The notes below the pieces were generated by a model. The model was not told where the DNA came from. It searched no databases and saw only the letters and a list, made by a program, of their open reading frames with translations. From positions 1-22,976 of the forward strand of contig CAZJUB010000008.1 in assembly GCA_964549075.1 (NCBI GenBank): a stretch of DNA of 22,976 nucleotides, written 5' to 3'. The position numbers and the translations under genes were made by a program. Each line of letters begins with the position of its first letter. Position 1 is the first letter of the stretch. Source of the DNA: an uncultured archaeon (GTDB taxonomy: Archaea; Asgardarchaeota; Heimdallarchaeia; Heimdallarchaeales; Heimdallarchaeaceae). Shown piece after piece: positions 5,731 to 18,471 of the stretch.

Positions 5731-5834
5731 GTTAATAGTTGTTTGTTTAGAAAAATATGAGATAAAATAATTTTCTCAGATTTAGATAGATGAACAATTT
5801 TATTAGTGTTCAAAATAAGAGAGTATCGTTAAGA

Positions 5835-6866
5835 ATGGCTACTACTTCGCAATCTCCTCAAGAAAATCTATCCATCAATGATGAAAACGAAGACATACCA
5901 TTATTATTAGCTGAAGATGTTATCAAAATTTATCAAACAGGTAAAATTGAAACACAAGCTCTTAGAGGTGTATCTTTTAAGGTTTATCCAAGAGAGAAAG
6001 TGTTTCTTATTGGACCAAGTGGTTCTGGTAAAACTACACTAGTAAATACAGTCGCTGGGATAATAAAACCAACATCTGGCAAAGTATTTTGGAAAGACTT
6101 GTCTAAAGACATTACAAAATCTACACTGGAGGAGATAATTAAAGCAAGACGTTCTTTCGCTGGTGTGATATTCCAAGATAGTAGATTACTTTCACATTTG
6201 ACTGTAAAGGAGAACATTGAACTAGCAGGTCATTATGCTGGAATTAATCCAAAGGTAATAAAACAAAGAACTGATTTTCTTCTAAGATTTCTAAATATAT
6301 GGGAAAAACGCGATAAAAGAGAAGATACTTTATCTGGTGGGGAGAAAAAACGTGCAGCAATCGCCACATCATTAATCACTAATCCACGTATTTTAATTGG
6401 TGACGAACCTACAGGAGATTTAGACATTGTAACAGCAGAAAACATACTTGATCTATTTGACAGGATCAATAAGGAACTTGGTATTGCTCTCTGTATTGTA
6501 ACTCATTCTCAACAAGTAGCTTCTAGAGCAGATAGAATACTGGAGTTGCGTGATGGTATAATTATAGGTCGTCATGGCAAGGAGATAGTTCTGAGAAATC
6601 TTGAGGAAAGCAGATTACTGGAAATCGACAGACAAGATAGGATTGCAATACCTAAATCTATCTTAAATGTGGTTAATGATCCTAAACATTTTGCTATTTC
6701 GACAAAAGGCAAAAATATAATTCTTACTCCTGTCTTTGACCCAAACCTTTACAATAATGGACAAGAAGTTGTAACTTGCGCAATGTGCGGAAGAAGAGTA
6801 AGTCCGACTGCAAAATTCTGCCCATATTGCTCCGAAACGATTACTCACACAAAGGGTACAAAATGA
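5835..6866 (+). CDS. ABC transporter ATP-binding protein (LolD/MacB-like) with C-terminal AbrB-like hairpin and zinc ribbon
   Basis: Walker A GPSGSGKT, signature LSGGE, Walker B ILIGDEPTG, H-loop VTH; tail EIDRQDRIAIP...KNIILTP and CAMC-x10-CPYC. ATG 5835 preferred over 5790. Confidence 0.88.
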   Translation: MATTSQSPQENLSINDENEDIPLLLAEDVIKIYQTGKIETQALRGVSFKVYPREKVFLIGPSGSGKTTLVNTVAGIIKPTSGKVFWKDLSKDITKSTLEEIIKARRSFAGVIFQDSRLLSHLTVKENIELAGHYAGINPKVIKQRTDFLLRFLNIWEKRDKREDTLSGGEKKRAAIATSLITNPRILIGDEPTGDLDIVTAENILDLFDRINKELGIALCIVTHSQQVASRADRILELRDGIIIGRHGKEIVLRNLEESRLLEIDRQDRIAIPKSILNVVNDPKHFAISTKGKNIILTPVFDPNLYNNGQEVVTCAMCGRRVSPTAKFCPYCSETITHTKGTK

Positions 6867-7563: not shown

Positions 7564-9330
7564 ATGAACAAAAAAGCACTTTTAGGCGCAAGCCTACTAT
7601 TTCTGTTTGCTTTATCAGCTTTCATTGGGCAAGTACAAGCCCAAGATACTGAAGTAGCAGAAGTATTTTCATTGAACTTACTATCACCAAACACAAGTGC
7701 CGCAAGAAATCAATGGTCACTACTTATGGAAAATCAATTACCAAAAATTGGTATTGGTGTAGACTTCCATGAATCCACTGGATGGGGAAACATTGGTCCA
7801 AGAACCTGGTCCTATCCTTTGATTGACTATGATTATATTCCAACATACGCAGAGGGTGGTTTCGATATACTCTTTGTAGGTTGGTCTTGGGGACTTGATT
7901 GGGATCCAACTGGTCTTTTTGACTCAGGAAGTATAGTTCCTTATGGAGATAACTTCTATCAATACATCAACCCAACTTATGACGGGTTACTGAACGACTA
8001 TCTAACTGAATTAGATCAAGAACAACAGATTCTTTATGGACAACAACTGCAACAAATCCTCTATGAAGATTTACCAAACATTGTCCTAGTCTATCCAAAA
8101 TCCCTCTTTGGTTTCAAGGAAGGACTGACTGGAATTGATCCTCTTCTATTAGGAGCTGGTGTACCACGATATGAATTCTGGGATGATCCAGAAGATCATA
8201 TAATCAAATATGCTATTCCTGCAAATCTTGCAGAATGGAACACATATGTCCAAGAATCATTCTATGATACTTTATGGATGCAAGGAGTTTATGGTGCTCT
8301 ATATCAGAGACAACAAGATTCTCACATATATGAGCCTCAGATTGCTGCAGATTTACCAACTTATACAGATGATTTGATGAGTATGTCTGTAGATATCGAC
8401 CCCTCAGCTACTTTCAGCAATGGAGATCCAGTACTCGCTGAAGATGTTGTATATTCATTACATCTACACATGACACCAGCAGTAGGTTCTTCAAGCTACA
8501 GTTACTTCAACACATGGTTTGCCTCAAATGCATCTGTTTATGCAGCTGATACAGACACAGTTTGCTTCAACATGACAGATGTTAATGCTTTTGCACTAGG
8601 AACAATTTCCTACTCAATTATCGACAAAAGCACTGTTGAACCATTAATCTCCTCATACGGTTACAGTATCTTCAATGAAGTACCTCTAACTGGTAATGTA
8701 GGTGATGGTTTAGTAATGTCCTGTGGTCCTTTCATGTTAGATGACTTTGATTCTGTTAGTAGTACAGTAACACTTGTACCAAATCCAGAATATGGAGGAA
8801 CCGCTCCTTCACTTACTCAATGGATTTTAACATACATATCGGGTAAAGATACAGCTGTCTCTTCATTGATTGCTGGAGATGTTGATATTACTGATGGACA
8901 ATACTTCCCACAGATAGCAGACTTCACTCCATCAGGTGTAGAAGGTGTTCTAGTTAGTGACCCATCTGATCAAGAAATGGCATTGAACATGAGACATCCT
9001 GTCTTTGGTACCGGTGAATTGACACCCGTAGGAACTCCTGAAGCCGCTAAAGATGTAAGAAAAGCTATCAGCCACGCTGTTCCTCGTGATATCATCGTAT
9101 CCCAAATCCTTGAAGGACTTGGTGATCCAGGTGTAACAGTCTGTCCAAACGTAGCAGTATGTTTTGATTCATCACTACAACCATACGCTTATGACATTGA
9201 TACAGCTCTTGACTTTATGGAATTAGCCGGATTTGATGTAAGAGTATCTGCAACTGGAATATCAGGATTGATTTTCTTATCATTCCTAGGTCTTGCTTCA
9301 GTACTAGCATTCAGAAGATTTAGAAAATAA
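7564..9330 (+). CDS. Family 5 (Opp/Dpp-like) ABC solute-binding protein, circularly permuted, with signal peptide and C-terminal membrane anchor
   Basis: Signal peptide MNKKALLGASLLFLFALSAFIGQVQA; SBP_5 motifs ATFSNGDPVLAEDVVYSL, CGPFML, DVRKAISHAVPRD, YDIDTALDFMELAGF, GFDILFVGW; tail GISGLIFLSFLGLASVLAFRRFRK. Confidence 0.85.
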   Translation: MNKKALLGASLLFLFALSAFIGQVQAQDTEVAEVFSLNLLSPNTSAARNQWSLLMENQLPKIGIGVDFHESTGWGNIGPRTWSYPLIDYDYIPTYAEGGFDILFVGWSWGLDWDPTGLFDSGSIVPYGDNFYQYINPTYDGLLNDYLTELDQEQQILYGQQLQQILYEDLPNIVLVYPKSLFGFKEGLTGIDPLLLGAGVPRYEFWDDPEDHIIKYAIPANLAEWNTYVQESFYDTLWMQGVYGALYQRQQDSHIYEPQIAADLPTYTDDLMSMSVDIDPSATFSNGDPVLAEDVVYSLHLHMTPAVGSSSYSYFNTWFASNASVYAADTDTVCFNMTDVNAFALGTISYSIIDKSTVEPLISSYGYSIFNEVPLTGNVGDGLVMSCGPFMLDDFDSVSSTVTLVPNPEYGGTAPSLTQWILTYISGKDTAVSSLIAGDVDITDGQYFPQIADFTPSGVEGVLVSDPSDQEMALNMRHPVFGTGELTPVGTPEAAKDVRKAISHAVPRDIIVSQILEGLGDPGVTVCPNVAVCFDSSLQPYAYDIDTALDFMELAGFDVRVSATGISGLIFLSFLGLASVLAFRRFRK

Positions 9331-9369
9331 AGAGTTTAACTCTTTACTTTTTTTCTTTTTATTTTTCTT
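9328..9369 (+). terminator. Hairpin plus T-tract terminator
   Basis: TAAAGAGT-TTA-ACTCTTTA perfect 8-bp stem overlapping the stop codon, then CTTTTTTTCTTTTTATTTTTCTT. Confidence 0.65.
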
Positions 9370-9391
9370 AGAAGAGGGAAGAGTCTATATT

Positions 9392-12300
9392 TTAATCAAA
9401 CAATCTTAAAACTGTTTTACAATATGGACATCTTTCATAATTCTTTATCCAAGTAACTAAATGATCAAAGTGGAACAAATGCTCACAAACAGGACATTCA
9501 ATTGCATTCTCATATACAGGTTGAAAACACACCATACATTTCAATGAATCTTCTTCAGATTCTGTGATTTTCTTTCCTGTTACTAGTACTTTTTTCATCA
9601 CTTTCGCTATCTTTGAAATATTCTCAGCTACAACTGTAATCTCTTTTAACCTAGGTTTTGTTTCTATTGTTTCTTGAGATATAACTACTGCACTTTTTTG
9701 CAAATAGTCAATATATTCTCCTAGTACTTTCTTATCAATTTGAGGATCACCAATTACAACTAATTTCTTTTTAGCTCTGGTAATTGCAACATTCAATCTT
9801 CTCGGATCAGAGAAACCTCTACTACCTTCAGAGATATTTTCAGTTAATGAAAGAAGAATAAATTCCCGATCACTTCCTTGAAATCGATCTACTGTATCAA
9901 CAACTGTCTTTGGTGGCAATGAACGTCGTAGTTCCCCTACTTGACCTCTATAAGGGCAAATAACGCCTATTTGATCTGATTTCAATCCTAATTCCATAAA
10001 TTTTTTTATTATTTCACTTGCAGTCTTAGCTTCTGCTAAATTTATTTTATTTTCAGGATTGAAAATACCACTAATTGGAATATAAACGAGAGGAGTTTTT
10101 GGATCATAAATTTTAGAGTGTTTAAAATTAACATATTCACCAGTGAAGTTTGCTAACTCTGTTAAATTCTGAAAACGGACCAAATCATCAAAGGATTCAA
10201 GTTTATTCTTATAAAAAACCTGATTTGAGAACTCCATTAGTTTCTCGTTCATCCTGAATTGATGAGTAAGAAGATGAATTGAATCTGGCGAATTATCAGC
10301 TAATCTTTCAAATAATGAAACACCCATACCTTCTTTTTGAGCTTTAGGACTTTGAACTACTGGAGGGAGTTGTTTATGATCTCCAACGAGGATAAATCTA
10401 TTCCCTTCAAGTAAAGCAGACAAAACAGTAGGTTCAGTCATTTGGCTAGCTTCGTCTACTATAATTGTTCGAACTCCTAATCGTTCATAAACAGGATTAG
10501 AAATAGTAGAGGTTGTAGCAACAATTATCGAAAAACCAGTTATTATTTCCTTTGCTGATTTCTCTGGATTTTGTTTTTTATATTCAGGTAAGGTATAATC
10601 TTTTAATTCAGGTTGAATAGCATGTGGAGAACCCAATCTTATGAATTGTTTAAATTGATTATCAAGAAGATATTTGCACATGTTGTCTACTGCTCTATTT
10701 GTAAAAGCAGTAAGTAACACTTTATCCCCTTTTTTAGCTAATTCAATAGCTGCTTTTGCTATTACATAGGTTTTACCTGTTCCAGCGGGACCTTGAATTA
10801 AACAATAATTTTCTGTACCTAAAATTTTACTAACTGCTTCATTTTGGACGGGATTTGTGAGAATATATTTTCCTTCTACAGGTTTTATAATCGATTTCTC
10901 CCCTTTTACAACTAATTCTCTAAAAGTATTTTTTCTGAAGATGATATTATAAAGCCCTCTTTGTTGACGTCTAAAGCCAACATCAATTGAATATAGATCT
11001 ATAACAGAAACGGAGCCTTGAATGGATCTAGTTTCGACTTCTACAGAGGTTTCAGAAATATTAGAGATTACTCCCGTACTGACAAAACCTTGAACAAGTT
11101 GTCCATCACTTAGGATAACAATGTCTCCCTCTCGTATTTCACTATTATTCTCACAAGAGAAAAGTAATCTGGTTTTAATACCGTCACTGATTTCATTCTC
11201 AAGTTTTAAATTTTTGATAGCTTTTCCTTTTGAAACCCTCTGATCTACGGAAAGTTTCCATAAGTCGGTAAGATTTTGCGATGATTCAGACTTCTCTGAA
11301 TAAATCCAATTTGAGAATTTACGAAAATATTCTTGATGTTCGTTGGGAAGAGCTTTCTTGCTGCATAAGGTTTCATGAGGACATGTTGAACATCTTCGTT
11401 CTTGATACAATCCAGCACATAATGCAGCACAGAAGAATTTGACTGAACATTTTTCACATTTCTTTATTTGAGATTCAGGAAGAATTGGTGGTACATAACC
11501 TAGATTAGATATACGATAAGCTATATTCCTTTTTTCCATCCCAAATCGTAAAAGTCCCCAACTTGGACTTGCTGTTTTTAAAATAACTTCATTTGTACCA
11601 ACATAAATAACAGTTCCATCTTGTTGTTGAGTATTATCGATTTTAGATTGGATGCCATAATTATACAATGAAACTTGAAGTAAATCAGAAAAGCGTATCT
11701 CTTTCTCTTCAGAAACTTTTGCTGTTTTCAACTCGTAAATTGTGTTCTCATCAAAAAGATCGATCCTACCACGTATTCCGAAATAAGGAGAAAGAAATAG
11801 CATCTCAGGTAAAGTATCAGAACCCAAGGTAGAAACAAAAGAATCTAGACTCTCAGTCATCTTCCTAACATCTTGATAGACTGTTTCTTTGTTATATCCA
11901 TGATATTCGTATTGCAACGAGAATGAATCTAATACTTGAGGTAAAACATCCGAAGGTTTAGATTTGGTTGCAACCGCTAATCCTAAACTGTCATGAACGA
12001 TAGAACCTCTAATCGCTATGTAAGGAGAGGGAGTTTCTCCAATGATTTCGTTGAGATAATAACTTCGAGGACAATAAGAAACACTATTTATTGACGTCGC
12101 ATTTAGTAAGACATCTGGATCGACAACGACAATAGACTGTTTTCCAGCTGAAAAATATGTTGAATCATCCTCAGTTATTTTATCTACATTAAAGATTTTC
12201 AAAGGAGTAAAAGCAGGTAGATAGTCAACAATATCATTCCAAGGAGACCATAAATTAACGATAAAATGAGTTTTATTTACATCGACAAGAATTGTCGAAA

Positions 12301-12397
12301 GAGGATTATCTCCGTCTTTTGATGAAACGAATTTGAGAAAAACACAATCTAGATTCTGCATGGTCAATAGATTATCTGGAAAATGATAAATAAACAT
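9392..12397 (-). CDS. Dna2-like nuclease-helicase (Cas4/PD-(D/E)xK Fe-S nuclease plus UPF1-like SF1 helicase) with C-terminal RING finger
   Basis: Nuclease: LNATSINSVSYCPR, RGSIVHD, GIRGRIDL, YELKT, QVSLY, CEKC-x5-C. Helicase: QGPAGTGKT, TAFTNRAVDN, DEASQ, VGDHKQLPP, QFRMN, CPYRGQ, TVDRFQGSD, RLNVAITRAK. RING: CMVC...CPVCEHLFHFDHLVTW...CPYC. Start may be ATG 12361. Confidence 0.88.
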   Translation of the reverse strand: MFIYHFPDNLLTMQNLDCVFLKFVSSKDGDNPLSTILVDVNKTHFIVNLWSPWNDIVDYLPAFTPLKIFNVDKITEDDSTYFSAGKQSIVVVDPDVLLNATSINSVSYCPRSYYLNEIIGETPSPYIAIRGSIVHDSLGLAVATKSKPSDVLPQVLDSFSLQYEYHGYNKETVYQDVRKMTESLDSFVSTLGSDTLPEMLFLSPYFGIRGRIDLFDENTIYELKTAKVSEEKEIRFSDLLQVSLYNYGIQSKIDNTQQQDGTVIYVGTNEVILKTASPSWGLLRFGMEKRNIAYRISNLGYVPPILPESQIKKCEKCSVKFFCAALCAGLYQERRCSTCPHETLCSKKALPNEHQEYFRKFSNWIYSEKSESSQNLTDLWKLSVDQRVSKGKAIKNLKLENEISDGIKTRLLFSCENNSEIREGDIVILSDGQLVQGFVSTGVISNISETSVEVETRSIQGSVSVIDLYSIDVGFRRQQRGLYNIIFRKNTFRELVVKGEKSIIKPVEGKYILTNPVQNEAVSKILGTENYCLIQGPAGTGKTYVIAKAAIELAKKGDKVLLTAFTNRAVDNMCKYLLDNQFKQFIRLGSPHAIQPELKDYTLPEYKKQNPEKSAKEIITGFSIIVATTSTISNPVYERLGVRTIIVDEASQMTEPTVLSALLEGNRFILVGDHKQLPPVVQSPKAQKEGMGVSLFERLADNSPDSIHLLTHQFRMNEKLMEFSNQVFYKNKLESFDDLVRFQNLTELANFTGEYVNFKHSKIYDPKTPLVYIPISGIFNPENKINLAEAKTASEIIKKFMELGLKSDQIGVICPYRGQVGELRRSLPPKTVVDTVDRFQGSDREFILLSLTENISEGSRGFSDPRRLNVAITRAKKKLVVIGDPQIDKKVLGEYIDYLQKSAVVISQETIETKPRLKEITVVAENISKIAKVMKKVLVTGKKITESEEDSLKCMVCFQPVYENAIECPVCEHLFHFDHLVTWIKNYERCPYCKTVLRLFD

Positions 12398-13594: not shown

Positions 13595-15838
13595 TTATTT
13601 TACTTGTGTTGACCTTCCTCTTGCAAAATCAGCTATGACTATATAAGAGACTAATTTTGCAAATTCTGTTGAACTACTTAATATTCCCACCACTTGTTGT
13701 GTTGCTTCATCAGTTGCTGCTATAAGAACCTCTTCATTTTCTCTTTCTACACCAATAAATTGTGGTAATTCAACTCCTGTTCCCACATCTCTGAACTTTC
13801 TTACTTCTACATTTGCCTCAGCTGCATAAGCTGAATCTATCCAATCTCGGTTTATCTGTTCATCTAGATTTGTCACGATGGTAACTCTCACTGTTGAAGG
13901 TAAGGATTTCACTGCATCTAGTGGAACATATTGAGGTTTTGGAGACATAATAGTTACACTTCGTTTTGCATCTCTTACTATTCGATCAATATGGCTTATT
14001 GTTGCATCAAGCCCTATAATAGAAGTTGTTTCCACCTTCGGAACTGGTGATTCTTTTGTTGTTGCTTCTAAAGTTCTGAAATCGTTTTTGAGTTTCATTG
14101 TTAGAGTTGATAAAGAATTAGCAGTATCATTATATTTTCCACCTGTTTCTTCTAAGAAACTTGTTGCTGCATTCACTTCCTCATTTATCTCTCCAGAGAC
14201 GAGTTCTTTACTTTCACTAATTTGCTTTTTGGAGGAGTTAACTAAATCATTTGTCACTTGCAAAGATGATTCAAGTGTTTGATTGAGATAGTTACTTAAA
14301 TCAGAAGCAATTGTAGCAGTTGTTGCTCCTATCATGTTGATTGATTCTTGGTATTTCTCGTTTATCTTTGCCTCATTCTCTTGTGTTAATGTTTCAATTT
14401 GATTCGACAAATTCGACCATTTTTCTTTCAACCCATCTGTCTCGGATCCTAATGTTTGTCGTATATTATCATTAAGCTGCTCAGAGACTTCTCTGAATAG
14501 TTGAATATGCTCATTCATACTATCAAAAATAGAAGTTGTGATTCCATTGAATTGGTCTGTTAAAGATTTTTTGAATGAACTCAATCTCATTCTTGCTGTT
14601 TCTTGGATTTCAGCTATCTTTTCATTATAATTCTTTATTGTTTCATCATAATGTGTTTCGAGTTTCTGAGCAAACATGTCGCGTTCGCTTACTAGATTAT
14701 TTCTTTGGGTTTGTTCACTATTTTGCAAATTTGTAAATTTCAGGTTCATATCTCCCTTAATTTGAGAGATAGTTCCAGAAATAGCCTGATTTCTTTGTTG
14801 TTCAAATTCTTCTGATAAATTCGTCTTGATTTCTGATACTTTCTCATTCAAAGAGTTGATTGCCTCTTGAACTTGAAGAGAGAGTTCTTCTACCTTTCTA
14901 TTCAGAATCATTTCTAGAGAAGTATTTAATTCTCCGAGAGAACCCGTTACAGTCTCAGTTAAACCATCTATTGTTGCTTCTGCGCTTCTAACGGTCCCAG
15001 TCGAAAAGCTGACATATTTTTCTGTTTGGTCTCTATTAAAAGTTCTAACATCTAATTTTGTTGTATCAATATTTTGTTTAATAACTTCTGTAATTTCATT
15101 AAGATGATTCAAGTAATTTTCTTCAAGCATATCAATTTTTGGAGTTAAGGTTTGAGAGATCTCATTGATCTTTTCTTTGTGTTGTCTAGTATTTTGATCA
15201 ACATTTGATATGGAAGATATTATAGCTTCAGAATTTGAAGATATGATGCTTTCTAAACTTGTATCAACGGACATTTTTGCAGCAGACAAAATATCTAGAT
15301 TGTCATGTGAGACTTCGTTAATAGAGTCTCCAATGAATTGTTTTTGCTCCTTTTGTATATCTGAGAGTTTTTCTTTTATTATGTTGGACTTGCTTTCTAG
15401 ATTTTCTCTTCTTTGATTAGTAAGAGTTTGAAGATTAGCTGAAATGCTGGAGTACTGTTGGTCTAGCTCTTCTTCCTTTTGCACTAATGAAGAATTGAGC
15501 CGATTTAAAATGGTAGTCCTTAACTGATTGAATTCAGCCTTTTTATTTTGAACAAATGAATTAGTACCATCTAAATTCTCTTTGATACTAGTATTGATTT
15601 GGTCACTTGTTTCAGCGAGATATTCTAAAGGAATTCTAACAAAATATTTTCTCACATAACCCTCTGAAACACCTACAGCACCTTTAGCAGCAAGTGAATT
15701 CAGAGCACCTTCTACTTTGGAAAAATGAAGCTTACCATGTTCAGCAATTTCAAATGCTGTTAGCTGTCCTGTTCCTAGAAGTAATGAATAAACTTGTTTT
15801 TCCTCTGGACTTAATTGTAATCTTTCTATAAATGACAT
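13595..15838 (-). CDS. TrmB-like protein: N-terminal wHTH, very long coiled coil, C-terminal TrmB effector/PLD-like domain
   Basis: LQLSPEEKQVYSLLLGTGQLTAFEIAE...KVEGALNSLAAKGAV...RKYFVRIP (TrmB HTH); about 530 aa of Pro-poor, E/Q/N/K/S/L-rich helical sequence; IIGLDATISHIDRIVRDAKRSVTIMSP...VRVTIVT...ERENEEVLIA. ATG 15838 with AGGTGT upstream preferred over TTG 15859. Confidence 0.75.
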   Translation of the reverse strand: MSFIERLQLSPEEKQVYSLLLGTGQLTAFEIAEHGKLHFSKVEGALNSLAAKGAVGVSEGYVRKYFVRIPLEYLAETSDQINTSIKENLDGTNSFVQNKKAEFNQLRTTILNRLNSSLVQKEEELDQQYSSISANLQTLTNQRRENLESKSNIIKEKLSDIQKEQKQFIGDSINEVSHDNLDILSAAKMSVDTSLESIISSNSEAIISSISNVDQNTRQHKEKINEISQTLTPKIDMLEENYLNHLNEITEVIKQNIDTTKLDVRTFNRDQTEKYVSFSTGTVRSAEATIDGLTETVTGSLGELNTSLEMILNRKVEELSLQVQEAINSLNEKVSEIKTNLSEEFEQQRNQAISGTISQIKGDMNLKFTNLQNSEQTQRNNLVSERDMFAQKLETHYDETIKNYNEKIAEIQETARMRLSSFKKSLTDQFNGITTSIFDSMNEHIQLFREVSEQLNDNIRQTLGSETDGLKEKWSNLSNQIETLTQENEAKINEKYQESINMIGATTATIASDLSNYLNQTLESSLQVTNDLVNSSKKQISESKELVSGEINEEVNAATSFLEETGGKYNDTANSLSTLTMKLKNDFRTLEATTKESPVPKVETTSIIGLDATISHIDRIVRDAKRSVTIMSPKPQYVPLDAVKSLPSTVRVTIVTNLDEQINRDWIDSAYAAEANVEVRKFRDVGTGVELPQFIGVERENEEVLIAATDEATQQVVGILSSSTEFAKLVSYIVIADFARGRSTQVK

Positions 15839-15966
15839 AATTACACCTTGATTCTTCAAAGTTCAATGTCTCAATCCGAAATATTAAGCTTTCTTCTAGT
15901 GCAATTTAGCATGATCATATCAATAAAATTTTTAACAATCTCTTCCTTGTACTTTTTGTGATATAG

Positions 15967-16898: not shown

Positions 16899-18392
16899 CT
16901 ATTTCTTTTTAATAAAACTCTCTAAAGAAGATTGAGATTTTTTCTTTGAATCTTTCTTTTGAGTTTTATCCTCTTCAGGAATTATCTTCTGTTCCTCTTG
17001 TTTTTTGGTTGGAGGAGGAGATTTTTTTATGTGAGCACTTTTTTTCTTCTCTGCAAATTCATTGTAAAACAAAATACTTTTTTCTGCTTTTTTTGCTTTT
17101 TCCATCCAATTCTCTGCCATAAGAACATAAGCTTCTTCTGCATATTCTTTGATTTTCTTTATCAACCTACTTGATCCTTCAGTGAGAAAATCCAGATCAT
17201 CATCACTATATTGGAACCAAGTAGCAAGTCCTCCAGCCATTTTTGGATCTGTATTGAAGATTATTCGAATGAAAGGATAATATTCAGTCTGAAATTCTTT
17301 ATTTGAGCAATGTAATCTTCTGGTACTCTTTTCAGCTAAATTCTTGATACTTGCATTTTTTCTCCTTAATCTTGCCATTAGTGACCAATAACTAGGAAAA
17401 CCATATTTAGTAAATTTGAAAGAAGAAGATTTAACCAACCCAACAGAGGAAATGAATGTAAAAAAGTATTTTAGAAATTTCCAATCTTGTTTAATGTAAC
17501 ATTGTGATAAATAGAAATCTGCTAAAGCGATTAATTCGTACATATTGAATTGCTCTGAAGAATTCTCAGATTGCTTCCAAGCGTGTTCATACACATAAGT
17601 CAGTAATTCCCTATAATCTACATCTACCCCATCCAAAGCGGCTTTTGCTTCATCAAAATTTTTTACTTGGAAAATCCTGTTTAAAGCATCATCAAGATTG
17701 TGTTGCTGGTTTCTTGGAGCAAATCTCGTCTTTGTATTCAATGTTCCAAAAGCTGCTCCTTCTAGATCATTTATTGCTGATCTAGCATCTCCACCACAAT
17801 TTTTAGTTATTGCAATAAGAGTTTCCTCATCAATCTTCAAACCTTCTTTTTCAGTAATTTTTTCTAGAAGCAATAGAATTTCATCTTCTTTTAACCGATG
17901 AAATTCAATAACCTTCATGCTTTTTTTCGCAGATTTCAATGAGTCTGCTGAAGGATCATTTGCTGTACAAATTATGGGGATTTTAGTAGAAGTGACAGCT
18001 TTTCCGAGGGCACTCCCCCCACCCCTATCTTCATTTCCAAATAAACCATCAGCCTCATCTACCAAAATTAATTTTCGAACTTTAGCTCCTTGGAGAACAG
18101 TTCCTTCAGTAGATGATTTACCTACAAGCAATTCTACAGCTTTTTTGTTTCTCTTGTCACTTGCATTAACTTCAACAAATTCGTATTTGTATTTTTTAAT
18201 TAAATAATGTACTACACTTGTCTTTCCAACACCAGCAGGACCTGCGAGTAAAGCGACTTTCTTTCTCTGTTGATTCCATGTCCTCAGCCATTTTTCCAGT
18301 TCTTGAACAGAATCTCTATTACCAACAAAATCAACTAAATACTCAGGACGATATTTCTCTACCCAAGGAATTGCCAAGGTTTGACTAGTCAT
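16899..18392 (-). CDS. rfcL: Replication factor C large subunit
   Basis: PWVEKYRP, GPAGVGKT, EVNASD, LVDEADGL, GDARSAINDL, charged tail ending in PIP box QSSLESFI. ATG 18392 preferred over TTG 18401. Confidence 0.93.
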   Translation of the reverse strand: MTSQTLAIPWVEKYRPEYLVDFVGNRDSVQELEKWLRTWNQQRKKVALLAGPAGVGKTSVVHYLIKKYKYEFVEVNASDKRNKKAVELLVGKSSTEGTVLQGAKVRKLILVDEADGLFGNEDRGGGSALGKAVTSTKIPIICTANDPSADSLKSAKKSMKVIEFHRLKEDEILLLLEKITEKEGLKIDEETLIAITKNCGGDARSAINDLEGAAFGTLNTKTRFAPRNQQHNLDDALNRIFQVKNFDEAKAALDGVDVDYRELLTYVYEHAWKQSENSSEQFNMYELIALADFYLSQCYIKQDWKFLKYFFTFISSVGLVKSSSFKFTKYGFPSYWSLMARLRRKNASIKNLAEKSTRRLHCSNKEFQTEYYPFIRIIFNTDPKMAGGLATWFQYSDDDLDFLTEGSSRLIKKIKEYAEEAYVLMAENWMEKAKKAEKSILFYNEFAEKKKSAHIKKSPPPTKKQEEQKIIPEEDKTQKKDSKKKSQSSLESFIKKK

Positions 18393-18471
18393 AAAGTTCA
18401 AATGAGTTATAATTTTTCAATATAAAAAACATGTGTATTTAATACAAGAAAGATGAAATAGAGGGTTACCT

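What the first reader, a model, noticed from the sequence alone, without database searches (positions are those of the whole stretch)
9392..12397. Dna2-like nuclease-helicase fused to a C-terminal RING finger (candidate DNA-processing E3 ligase)
Seen: intact RecB/Cas4-type nuclease motifs, full UPF1-like SF1 helicase motifs, a roughly 45-aa charged linker, then C-x2-C-x10-C-x2-C-x-H-x2-H-x2-H-x3-W-x6-C-P-x-C (9419-9538). Known: eukaryotic Dna2 has this Fe-S nuclease plus helicase layout without a RING; RING-helicase fusions such as Rad5/HLTF/SHPRH use SF2 motors; Asgard archaea encode ubiquitin, E1, E2 and RING proteins. The RING keeps the Trp and the terminal CPxC Pro that typically contact E2. 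Inference: one polypeptide may couple flap or end resection to ubiquitin-like tagging, for example of replisome or repair factors, or in anti-mobile-element defence. I do not know of a characterised protein with this architecture.
Basis: partly seen in the sequence, partly recalled or inferred. Interest (0 to 1): 0.82.

Follow-up and report, generated by a model that had tools for sequence, protein, structure and literature searches.

The report
Dna2 nuclease-helicase with RING tail
A Heimdall-group archaeon's Dna2-type DNA-cutting and DNA-unwinding enzyme ends in a ubiquitin-ligase-type RING finger, a conserved fusion not found in the other Dna2-like proteins examined, which hints that ubiquitin tagging may have been linked to DNA processing before eukaryotes arose.

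Summary
ORF 9392-12397 (-) encodes a 1001-aa protein with Dna2 architecture: OB fold, PD-(D/E)XK nuclease with four Fe-S cysteines, barrel, SF1B helicase. Its AlphaFold model matches mouse Dna2 over about 1040 columns (TM 0.74). A 66-aa linker leads to a RING at aa 953-996.

The RING is real. All 16 diverse C-termini scanned hit Pfam zf-RING_2. Their profile hits RING-H2 ligases in the PDB (Arkadia, E 8e-11). The conserved ligand set is C4H2C2; H973 is not conserved.

The fusion is not a chimera. Every complete orthologue has it, across four family-level groups of Heimdallarchaeia. All 19 RING-bearing sequences form one clade in a tree of 56. Haloarchaeal and bacterial Dna2-like proteins lack it. 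Contigs from other runs bridge the junction.

The genome encodes ubiquitin, E1, two catalytic E2s and 11 other RING matches. E3 activity remains an inference: the E2-RING complex prediction gave only weak support. One clade (f5) lacks the CPxC proline and the basic linchpin, and some of its genomes lack the gene altogether.

Asgard Dna2 homologues are in print. I found no description of the RING fusion. Verdict: new variant of a known kind, interest about 0.6.

The parts
9392..12397 (-). Whole ORF, 1001 aa plus stop (P0001). The likely true start is M13 at nt 12361.
   Evidence: Orthologues begin at the residue aligned to M13. aa 1-11 have pLDDT below 50.
12122..12364 (-). N-terminal beta-rich domain (aa 12-92), OB-fold-like as in Dna2.
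   Evidence: Pfam Dna2 PF08696 covers aa 42-191. The model shows strands 12-92. The full-length Foldseek alignment to mouse Dna2 5ean spans 1042 columns.
11408..12118 (-). PD-(D/E)XK (RecB/Cas4-type) nuclease domain (aa 94-330) with Fe-S cysteines C109, C314, C317, C323 and catalytic D213, E222, K224.
   Evidence: Pfam PDDEXK_1 covers aa 98-323 (E 1.2e-9) and Dna2 scores 1.2e-11. TIGR00372 cas4 covers aa 178-324. All listed residues are invariant in 37 sequences.
10898..11350 (-). Helical stalk plus beta-barrel (aa 350-500) between nuclease and helicase.
   Evidence: Secondary structure of the model. Aligned within the Dna2 structures.
9740..10864 (-). SF1B Upf1-like helicase (aa 512-886): Walker A G536-T543, DEAxQ 648-652.
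   Evidence: Pfam AAA_11 and AAA_12 score 4e-36 and 8e-43. Mouse DNA2 5eaw scores 2.1e-60 over aa 515-906. The motif residues are invariant.
9542..9739 (-). Linker (aa 887-952): one helix, two short strands, then a Lys/Glu-rich stretch that is disordered at aa 940-947.
   Evidence: pLDDT 49-79. It is the least conserved region, 0.51 against 0.72-0.76 for the domains. See also the alignment.
9410..9541 (-). RING finger (aa 953-996). Conserved ligands are C954, C957, C968, C971, H976, H979, C990, C993. E2-facing residues are V956, W983, P991, K994.

Best explanation
This is the Heimdallarchaeial orthologue of Dna2. It is a single-copy enzyme that threads a 5' single-stranded DNA tail or flap through an Fe-S-stabilised PD-(D/E)XK nuclease and is driven 5'-3' by an SF1B motor. 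A RING-H2-derived finger has been added through a flexible linker of about 66 aa.

The most likely working model is that the RING docks a charged E2~ubiquitin. The best candidate is the highly conserved UbcH5-like E2 encoded at G000:C2. Dna2 engaged on a flap or DNA end would then ubiquitylate itself, giving self-limiting turnover of a dangerous nuclease, and/or proteins sitting on the same DNA.

Shown: the domain architecture, intact catalytic and metal-binding residues, RING homology and fold, conservation and single origin of the fusion, and presence of Ub/E1/E2.

Inferred: E2 binding, ligase activity, the substrates, and the role in flap processing or resection.
For: Architecture and enzyme core:
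- Pfam, NCBIfam and PDB sequence hits.
- The full-length AlphaFold model has pLDDT 85.3 and pTM 0.86. Its best Foldseek hits are the three mouse Dna2 entries: 5ean, E 1.1e-53, TM 0.74/0.71, 1042 columns.
- Nuclease, Fe-S and helicase residues are invariant in 37 homologues of 33-95% identity.

RING identity:
- All 16 of 16 C-termini hit zf-RING_2. Only 2 of 16 hit PHD.
- The profile's best PDB hits are RING-H2 E3s (Arkadia 8.4e-11, RNF165, AMFR, synoviolin, RNF38, RLIM), and nearly all of the 60 shown are RING proteins.
- The domain model (RING part pLDDT 87-95) has RING/U-box ligases as its top Foldseek matches, e.g. 3lrq with rmsd 1.5 A over 54 columns.
- C954, C957, C968, P969, C971, H976, H979, W983, C990 and C993 are invariant.
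- The RING is as conserved as the catalytic domains: 0.75 against 0.72-0.76, with the linker at 0.51.

E2-facing residues:
- V956, W983 and K994 correspond to I30, W58 and R69, which are needed for activity of the Caldiarchaeum RING E3 (PMC5654768, passages read).
- They are kept in the Heimdallarchaeaceae and f3 sequences.

Ubiquitin system in the same genome:
- 4 UQ_con matches. Two have H-P/A-N plus a catalytic Cys and two are Cys-less UEV-like.
- 2 ubiquitin matches and 3 ThiF matches. Two Ub-E1 gene clusters.
- The C2 E2 is found in 58 of 61 genomes of the class.

Complex prediction of E2 with RING:
- Verdict: weak support. Score 0.42, best of 3 controls 0.00.
- The mark was reached by 58 of 80 solved complexes and 2 of 110 mismatched pairs. 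At 0.60 or under it was reached by only 7 of those 80 solved complexes and by both mismatches that passed.
- The runs agree in at least 97% of contacts and the partner's pLDDT is at least 80.
- My own alignments were used, so the counts hold only roughly.
- RING-E2 complexes are solved, so the pass may reflect likeness to them.

Fusion is real and old:
- 24 of 24 genomes of the genus have a match (20 on one contig end to end) and 28 of 28 of the family; f2 1/1, f3 9/11, f5 11/21.
- All 21 of 21 fetched Dna2 loci carry the motif.
- All 19 RING-bearing rows form one clade, SH-aLRT 95, in a 56-row tree.
- Contigs of two runs not flagged as the possible source bridge the helicase-RING junction with 0 differences: X6 at 9305-10137 and X9 at 9145-9808.
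- Dna2 is the only one of the genome's RING proteins with a recognisable enzymatic domain. The other 10 scanned have none.
Against: - No ligase activity, E2 binding or substrate is shown. The complex prediction is only 'weak support' for a textbook pair.
- In the f5 clade, whose proteins cluster with ones labelled Candidatus Hodarchaeales, the CPxC proline and the basic linchpin are replaced (C-V/A-T/I-C-Q). The Kariarchaeaceae-labelled sequence lacks the Trp. Whatever function is common to all clades does not need these residues.
- The gene is not linked to Ub/E1/E2 genes in any locus examined.
- Five f5 genomes of 91-96% completeness have no Dna2 at all, so the protein is dispensable there.
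- No canonical PIP box was found.
Confidence: 0.5

Rival explanations
1. Same Dna2 enzyme, but the RING-like finger is not a ubiquitin ligase. It would be a zinc-stabilised interaction or regulatory module, for example binding a partner protein or DNA, dimerising, or docking back on the helicase, with no E2 involved.
For: - The features invariant across all clades are the eight metal ligands and, in all but one sequence, W983. The E2-activating Pro and linchpin are lost in f5, and the Trp is lost in the Kariarchaeaceae-labelled sequence.
- The ligand pattern C4H2C2 is non-canonical.
- There is no genomic linkage to Ub genes.
- The E2 complex prediction is only weak.
Against: - Sequence profile and fold point specifically to E3-type RING-H2 domains, not to PHD, FYVE or zinc ribbons.
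- In the window's own family and in f3, all four E2-facing positions are kept.
- The genome has a full Ub/E1/E2 set, and the same C4H2C2 RING type recurs in its other RING proteins.
Confidence: 0.3
2. The protein is the nuclease-helicase effector of a restriction-modification-like or other anti-mobile-element system, not a replication or repair Dna2. The RING would be used for regulation or for tagging invader proteins.
For: - In f5 the gene is followed on the same strand, at gaps of 2-28 bp in the four closest cases, by an Eco57I/TaqI_C-type N6 DNA methyltransferase in 8 of 9 loci. Two more methyltransferases (N6_N4 and DUF1156-type) lie next to it in 6 of 9 loci.
- The gene is found in only 11 of 21 genomes of that genus. 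It is precisely missing between the methyltransferase and ydjM-like genes in others.
- The helicase half resembles Mokosh MkoA (E 2e-64) and other defence helicases in PADLOC.
- Dna2-nuclease-containing defence proteins exist, e.g. Prometheus (PMC13700489, passage read).
Against: - All 9 f5 loci come from one genus in which unrelated housekeeping neighbours are equally syntenic, so they are not independent.
- No methyltransferase or defence gene flanks the gene in the window, in Heimdallarchaeaceae, in f2 or in f3. Neighbours there are transporters, ATP synthase, glutamine synthetase and RFC.
- The gene is single copy and present in 28 of 28 genomes of the window's family, with normal GC.
- PADLOC matches cover only the generic helicase or Cas4-like parts.
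- The whole-length best structural match is eukaryotic Dna2.
Confidence: 0.12
3. Artefact: an assembly or gene-calling chimera that joins a helicase gene to a separate small RING gene.
For: None found. The only formal reason to consider it is that the genome is a 217-contig draft.
Against: - One uninterrupted frame.
- The same fusion occurs in 21 of 21 fetched orthologous loci from other genomes, including closed ones.
- It is present in 43 of the first 46 proteins of the homologue list including the query. The 3 without it are fragments.
- Contigs from other runs bridge the junction.
Confidence: 0.01

Closest known systems
Eukaryotic Dna2 (mouse DNA2, PDB 5EAN/5EAW/5EAX)
   Same: Same order of domains: OB-like N-terminus, Fe-S PD-(D/E)XK nuclease, barrel/stalk, SF1B helicase. 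Foldseek gives TM 0.74 over about 1040 columns. The helicase scores 2e-60 by sequence. Pfam Dna2 PF08696 is hit.
   Different: No solved or listed Dna2 has a RING. Here 66 aa of linker plus a RING follow the helicase. Identity is only 22-23%. Specific sisterhood to eukaryotic Dna2 was not resolved in my tree. [quoted passage not shown]
Haloarchaeal and bacterial Dna2-like nuclease-helicases (e.g. P0049 Natronomonas, P0056 Halodesulfurarchaeum, P0136 Sericytochromatia, P0199 Desulfomonilaceae)
   Same: Same nuclease plus SF1B helicase core, 28-35% identity over about 85% of the query.
   Different: They end right after the helicase. None of the 133 non-Heimdall-clade proteins among the best 150 representatives has a RING-like motif.
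RING-H2 E3 ligases (Arkadia/RNF111, RNF165, AMFR/gp78, synoviolin/HRD1, RNF38) and the Caldiarchaeum subterraneum small RING finger protein
   Same: Profile E down to 8.4e-11. RING fold. Hydrophobic residue before ligand 2, Trp in the helix, CPxC and a basic linchpin, as in the archaeal srfp whose I30, W58 and R69 are needed for activity (PMC5654768).
   Different: The ligand set is C4H2C2 instead of C3H2C3: ligand 6 is His, and C968 is conserved where the canonical ligand-4 His is not. The domain is fused to a 950-aa DNA enzyme instead of being a small or membrane-anchored protein.
Rad5 / HLTF / SHPRH (helicase-like proteins with an embedded RING)
   Same: One polypeptide combines a DNA motor and a RING (recalled knowledge, no call).
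   Different: Those are SF2 Snf2-type motors with the RING inserted inside the ATPase, and they have no nuclease. Here the motor is SF1B, a nuclease is present, and the RING is a C-terminal appendage.
Upf1 (SF1B, same Upf1-like family) with its N-terminal CH domain; also ZNFX1 and IGHMBP2 with zinc-finger appendages
   Same: The helicase core is the closest family after Dna2. From recall, Upf1's CH domain is RING-like and has been reported to support E3 activity.
   Different: Upf1 is an RNA-surveillance helicase, has no nuclease domain, and its finger is N-terminal and of a different type. This comparison rests on recall for the CH domain.
Defence nuclease-helicases (Mokosh MkoA, Hhe, Prometheus/ProA)
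   Same: Share the Upf1-like helicase: MkoA 2e-64, ProA 2e-14 and Hhe 2e-9. Prometheus has a DNA2-type nuclease domain (PMC13700489).
   Different: Matches cover only parts of much longer proteins (1100-1900 aa). There is no DUF4011 and no defence neighbours in the window. Scores are far below the NCBIfam cut-offs.

Membership tests
Dna2 nuclease-helicase family | PD-(D/E)XK (RecB-type) nuclease with catalytic D...E-x-K | tested here: met
   Pfam PDDEXK_1 and Dna2 are hit above their cut-offs. D213, E222, K224, Q241 and Y245 are invariant in 37 sequences.
Dna2 nuclease-helicase family | Four cysteines of the Fe-S cluster bracketing the nuclease (C...C-x2-C-x5-C) | tested here: met
   C109, C314, C317 and C323 are invariant. 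Cluster binding itself is not testable here.
Dna2 nuclease-helicase family | C-terminal SF1B (Upf1-like) helicase with intact ATPase motifs | tested here: met
   AAA_11 and AAA_12. Mouse DNA2 2.1e-60. Walker A and DEAxQ are invariant.
Dna2 nuclease-helicase family | Whole-protein fold like solved Dna2 (OB, nuclease, barrel, 1A/2A) | tested here: met
   Foldseek best hits are 5ean, 5eax and 5eaw, E 1e-53 to 1e-51, TM 0.73-0.75, about 1040 columns. Model pLDDT is 85.3.
Dna2 nuclease-helicase family | Orthology with eukaryotic Dna2 in a rooted phylogeny | tested here: inconclusive
   The quick LG+G4 tree of 56 rows puts the one labelled eukaryote (P0235) on the other side of the central branch. 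Few rows could be named and there was no outgroup. PMC12680538 reports a relation.
Dna2 nuclease-helicase family | ssDNA/5'-flap nuclease and 5'-3' helicase activity | not testable with these tools
   Needs biochemistry.
RING-type E3 ubiquitin ligase | Eight Zn ligands with cross-brace spacing | tested here: met
   C954, C957, C968, C971, H976, H979, C990 and C993 are invariant. The spacing is C-x2-C-x10-C-x2-C-x4-H-x2-H-x10-C-x2-C. This is a variant C4H2C2 set. The geometry was not inspected because no coordinates are available.
RING-type E3 ubiquitin ligase | Sequence and fold homology to RING rather than PHD or other treble-clef fingers | tested here: met
RING-type E3 ubiquitin ligase | E2-facing residues: hydrophobic before ligand 2, helix Trp, CPxC Pro, basic linchpin after ligand 8 | tested here: met
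   V956, W983, P991 and K994 in the window protein. They are kept in Heimdallarchaeaceae and f3. Pro and linchpin are not kept in f5, and Trp is not kept in f2.
RING-type E3 ubiquitin ligase | Cognate ubiquitin, E1 and catalytic E2 in the same genome | tested here: met
   Two E2s have H-P/A-N plus Cys. There are two Ub-E1 clusters.
RING-type E3 ubiquitin ligase | Binds E2 | tested here: inconclusive
   Complex prediction gave weak support: score 0.42 against a best control of 0.00. This is a textbook pair, so the pass may reflect likeness to solved complexes.
RING-type E3 ubiquitin ligase | Stimulates ubiquitin transfer | not testable with these tools
   Needs reconstitution.
Restriction-modification-like / defence nuclease-helicase | Conserved linkage to a methyltransferase or other defence genes, and patchy distribution | tested here: not met
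   Met only in f5 (8 of 9 loci, one genus). Not met in the window, f1, f2 or f3. The window's family has the gene in 28 of 28 genomes.

The most novel reading that the evidence does not exclude
Heimdallarchaeial Dna2 is a DNA-structure-coupled E3 ligase. When the nuclease-helicase is loaded on a 5' flap or a resected end, its tethered RING recruits the conserved UbcH5-like E2 and ubiquitylates itself and neighbouring replisome or repair proteins such as SSB/RPA, PCNA or Mre11-Rad50. Ubiquitin signalling at DNA lesions and Okazaki flaps would then predate eukaryotes, first as a cis-fusion and later as separate E3s.
Probability: 0.2. Interest if true: 0.85.

Novelty: new variant of a known kind. 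Interest (0 to 1): 0.62.

Why it matters
In eukaryotes, ubiquitin and SUMO control DNA replication and repair through stand-alone ligases. When and how this coupling arose is unknown.

Here a complete Dna2 enzyme and a ligase-type RING sit in one polypeptide. The fusion is conserved across the archaeal class usually placed nearest to eukaryotes, in genomes that also encode ubiquitin, E1 and E2. That gives a compact, directly testable system of four or five recombinant proteins plus DNA. It can ask whether archaeal ubiquitylation is targeted to DNA-processing machinery, and whether DNA binding gates ligase activity.

If the RING is not a ligase, it is still a lineage-specific regulatory appendage on a key nuclease and a marker of a single evolutionary event.

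Tried and rejected
- The look-up of sequencing runs listed no RNA holder, so nothing can be said on expression.
- A canonical PIP box (Q-x2-[ILMV]-x2-aromatic-aromatic) was sought in 10 orthologues. None was conserved and none is in the window protein.
- A conserved operon partner was sought. Synteny holds only within the family. f2 and f3 neighbours are unrelated housekeeping genes.
- tRNA and Rfam scans of the window found nothing.
- Dna2 remnants in the empty f5 sites: none found, so loss and gain cannot be told apart.
- Phylogeny: only 7 of the 30 representatives asked about carried a name themselves or through a listed cluster member. The tree was a quick LG+G4 search without an outgroup. 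I therefore draw no conclusion on a Heimdall-eukaryote sister relation.
- Literature searches for 'archaeal Dna2' and 'PLuB system' gave 0 papers. I do not know what the NCBIfam 'PLuB system helicase-like protein' model (E 1e-75, far below its cut-off) stands for.
- The Haloferax review PMC7776575 has no occurrence of Dna2.
- The PHD reading of the C4-H-x2-H spacing was rejected.
- Paper supplements were not opened. Supplementary tables of PMC12680538 might list domain architectures of the Asgard Dna2 homologues.


Full report
**Observation**

The window holds one long ORF at 9392-12397 on the minus strand, 1001 aa with an ATG start. It translates without interruption (P0001).

The Cys/His residues of the tail are C954, C957, C968, C971, H973, H976, H979, C990 and C993.

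The likely true start is M13 (nt 12361). Orthologues begin at the aligned Met, and residues 1-11 are predicted disordered.

GC content is even across the window, 0.30-0.39. No tRNA or Rfam family is present.

**The enzyme core**

Pfam finds the following:
- Dna2 (PF08696, aa 42-191, E 1.2e-11)
- PDDEXK_1 (aa 98-323)
- the Upf1-like helicase pair AAA_11 / AAA_12 (E 4e-36 / 8e-43)

By sequence, the closest solved proteins are the three mouse DNA2 entries (E 2e-60 over aa 515-906). IGHMBP2, UPF1 and Sen1 follow.

An alignment of 37 homologues of 33-95% identity (A1) shows these residues invariant:
- nuclease: D213, E222, K224, Q241, Y245
- Fe-S cysteines: C109, C314, C317, C323
- Walker A: G536-T543
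- D648, E649, A650, Q652

AlphaFold2 on that alignment gives mean pLDDT 85.3 and pTM 0.86. Low confidence is confined to aa 1-11 and 940-947.

Foldseek places the model on mouse Dna2 over about 1040 columns: 5ean E 1.1e-53, TM 0.74/0.71. The next hits, IGHMBP2 and UPF1, cover only the helicase half.

So the Dna2 layout is met in every feature I could test. Activity is inferred.

**The C-terminal domain**

In the full-length scan zf-RING_2 scores 21.5 bits, below its cut-off of 27.3. Scanned alone, the last 75 aa score 27.8 bits. All 16 of 16 diverse orthologous C-termini (20-79% identical to the window's) hit zf-RING_2 at E <= 0.01. Only 2 of 16 hit PHD.

A profile of these 16 sequences hits 135 distinct PDB sequences at E <= 1. 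The best are RING-H2 ligases: Arkadia 8.4e-11, RNF165, AMFR/gp78, synoviolin/HRD1, RNF38 and RLIM.

The invariant residues are C954, C957, C968, P969, C971, H976, H979, W983, C990 and C993. H973 is replaced by K, Q, Y, N or others in many orthologues.

The HMMER alignment to Arkadia puts C971 at ligand 3, H976 at ligand 5 and H979 at ligand 6. The conserved set is therefore C4H2C2. The upstream C968 (a CPxC knuckle) seems to replace the canonical ligand-4 His, and His stands in for Cys at ligand 6. I could not read model coordinates, so this ligand assignment is an inference from conservation.

The same C4H2C2 layout recurs in most of the genome's other RING proteins. It is the local RING type rather than a peculiarity of this gene.

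**E2-facing residues**

In the reconstituted Caldiarchaeum cascade, the small RING protein needs I30, W58 and R69 (PMC5654768, passages read). The equivalent positions here are V956, W983 and K994, plus P991.

- They are kept in all Heimdallarchaeaceae-type and f3 sequences.
- In the f5 clade the last knuckle reads C-[VA]-[TI]-C-Q.
- In the single f2 sequence the loop is shorter and lacks the Trp.

Column conservation of the RING is 0.75 within the 28 closer rows and 0.64 over all 37. That equals the nuclease (0.72 / 0.63) and helicase (0.76 / 0.69). The linker is lower at 0.51 / 0.42.

**Is the fusion real, and how old is it?**

In the genome collection the window is G000:C8.

- All 24 sampled genomes of the genus have a match; in 20 it runs on one contig to about aa 1000, and in the other 4 it is cut by contig ends.
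- In a 301-genome sample of the phylum at E <= 1e-40, matches occur in f1 28/28, f2 1/1, f3 9/11 and f5 11/21.
- They do not occur in f4 (0/3), f6 (0/11) or any other family. The exceptions are two helicase-only matches, in f11 (1/76) and f23 (1/6).
- All 21 of 21 fetched Dna2 loci carry the motif. These include the five f3 loci whose tblastn match had stopped near aa 890.
- In the protein database, 43 of the first 46 proteins (the query and its 45 best hits) have the motif. The 3 without it are fragments of 573-892 aa. The next 14 printed are mostly haloarchaeal, end right after the helicase, and have none.
- Among the best 150 of 31,449 representatives, 17 carry the motif. None of the other 133 has any RING-like pattern.
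- In a quick maximum-likelihood tree of 56 Dna2-like rows, the 19 RING-bearing rows form one clade with SH-aLRT 95. This indicates a single acquisition.
- Source labels in that clade are Candidatus Heimdallarchaeaceae, Heimdallarchaeum aukensis, Hodarchaeales and Kariarchaeaceae.
- Contigs of two sequencing runs not flagged as the possible source bridge the helicase-linker-RING junction without a difference: X6 at 9305-10137 and X9 at 9145-9808.

**The ubiquitin system in the same genome**

UQ_con matches four places. Two encode canonical E2s with H-A/P-N and a catalytic Cys (C2 and C22). Two are Cys-less UEV-like proteins. One of those lies on the window's own contig at C8:31240-31917, outside the window.

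Ubiquitin matches twice and ThiF three times. Two gene clusters exist:
- E2, RING, Ub, E1 on C22
- Ub, E1, UEV-like on C18

zf-RING_2 matches 12 places including this gene. The 10 other RING proteins that I scanned have no recognisable catalytic domain. Dna2 is therefore the only enzyme-RING fusion seen in this genome.

The C2 E2 keeps the loop-4 Phe and the loop-7 Pro-Ala of UbcH5-type E2s. It is found in 58 of 61 genomes of the class and is 92-96% identical within the genus.

**E2-RING complex prediction**

- The verdict was weak support: score 0.42, best of 3 controls 0.00.
- The mark was reached by 58 of 80 solved complexes and 2 of 110 mismatched pairs.
- At 0.60 or under it was reached by only 7 of those 80 solved complexes and by both mismatches that passed.
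- The runs agree in at least 97% of contacts and the partner's pLDDT is at least 80.
- My own alignments were used, so the counts hold only roughly.
- RING-E2 complexes are solved, so the pass may show likeness only.

**Genomic context**

In the window the gene is monocistronic. It lies between a convergent solute-binding protein gene and a 630-bp upstream spacer. An RFC large-subunit gene lies 4.5 kb away.

Synteny is kept within the family. In a closed Heimdallarchaeum-type genome the RFC gene is the convergent neighbour. In f2 and f3 the neighbours are unrelated housekeeping genes: A-type ATPase, glutamine synthetase, and transporters with Ogt and DinB-family genes nearby. No locus links the gene to Ub, E1 or E2 genes.

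**The f5 clade**

- In 8 of 9 loci an Eco57I/TaqI_C-type N6 methyltransferase gene follows on the same strand. The gaps are 2-28 bp in the four closest cases.
- In 6 of 9 loci an N6_N4 methyltransferase and a DUF1156-type methyltransferase sit beside it.
- Five genomes of the same genus, 91-96% complete, have no Dna2 homologue at E <= 1e-10 with an f5 query.
- Those genomes keep the Eco57I-like methyltransferase. In three of them it lies next to the ydjM-like gene with only 170-420 bp between. No remnant is present.

So the protein is dispensable in part of that genus, and a restriction-like role cannot be excluded there. All nine loci come from one genus in which unrelated neighbours are equally conserved. 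Nothing similar is seen in the other three clades.

**Literature**

A 2025 paper on Asgard replisomes built a Dna2 tree. [quoted passage not shown] Its main text has no occurrence of RING, ubiquitin or zinc finger (PMC12680538, passages found; supplements not seen).

Searches for Dna2 with Asgard/RING, Heimdallarchaeota, 'archaeal Dna2', Asgard RING helicase E3, and Hodarchaeales/Heimdallarchaeia terms turned up no description of the fusion.

A Dna2-nuclease-containing defence protein, Prometheus, is reported in some Asgard lineages (PMC13700489, passage read). The window protein matches the ProA and Hhe models only over about 90 aa of the helicase.

**Verdict**

The architecture is real, ancient within Heimdallarchaeia and under selection. 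It is a Dna2-family enzyme (membership met on all testable features) with a bona fide but variant RING-H2 domain.

The ligase function is the best-supported mechanism for the window's own clade. It stays unproven, and I give it about 0.5. The rivals are a non-ligase zinc module at about 0.3 and a defence role at about 0.12.

It is a new variant of known kinds rather than a new kind of system. It is a clean entry point for testing whether archaeal ubiquitylation is aimed at DNA-processing machinery.

Noticed in passing
L023:6351-8066 (-), and the equivalent genes in L025 and L068-L074 except L070: In one genus (f5, proteins cluster with Hodarchaeales-labelled ones) the Dna2-RING gene is followed, at gaps of 2-28 bp in the four closest cases, by an Eco57I/TaqI_C-type N6 DNA methyltransferase. 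It is flanked by N6_N4 and DUF1156-type methyltransferases. Genomes of the same genus that lack Dna2 keep the methyltransferase.
   Followed up: partly
G000:C2:31622-32086 (+) = L028:1501-1965: A UbcH5-like E2 (H-A-N, catalytic Cys, loop-4 Phe, loop-7 Pro-Ala) is present in 58 of 61 genomes of the class. It is 92-96% identical within the genus, far more conserved than Dna2 (58-80%).
   Followed up: partly
G000:C8:31240-31917 (-), same contig but outside the window; also G000:C18:34924-36333 (-): Two UBC-fold proteins lack the catalytic Cys (UEV-like). The 470-aa one sits next to a ubiquitin and an E1 gene and has a long coiled-coil tail, reminiscent of ESCRT-I Vps23/TSG101 (recalled resemblance).
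   Followed up: no
G000:C22:28344-34081 (+): A gene cluster of E2, a 374-aa multi-pass membrane protein with a C-terminal RING-like finger (ligand 6 looks replaced), a ubiquitin-like protein with an acidic N-terminal extension, and E1.
   Followed up: no
window 13595-15859 (-): A 754-aa protein with an N-terminal TrmB-type HTH followed by about 550 aa of coiled-coil-like sequence (weak apolipoprotein/SF-assemblin hits). It is conserved next to the Dna2 gene within the family.
   Followed up: no
window 16899-18401 (-): Replication factor C large subunit (AAA, Rad17, RFC lid). In a closed genome of the same family it is the immediate convergent neighbour of the Dna2-RING gene (L022).
   Followed up: partly
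window 5790-6866 (+): An ABC-type ATPase with a C-terminal zinc ribbon (DUF7575 / Zn_Ribbon_1). The next ORF overlaps it.
   Followed up: no
window 12361-12397 (-): The first 12 codons of the called ORF are probably not translated. Orthologues start at the Met aligned to M13.
   Followed up: partly
G000: C13, C19, C7, C1, C5, C72: Most RING proteins of this genome share the same C-x2-C...C-x2-C-x4-H-x2-H...W...C-P-x-C-[KR] layout at their C-termini and have no other recognisable domain. This looks like a lineage-specific expansion of one RING type.
   Followed up: partly
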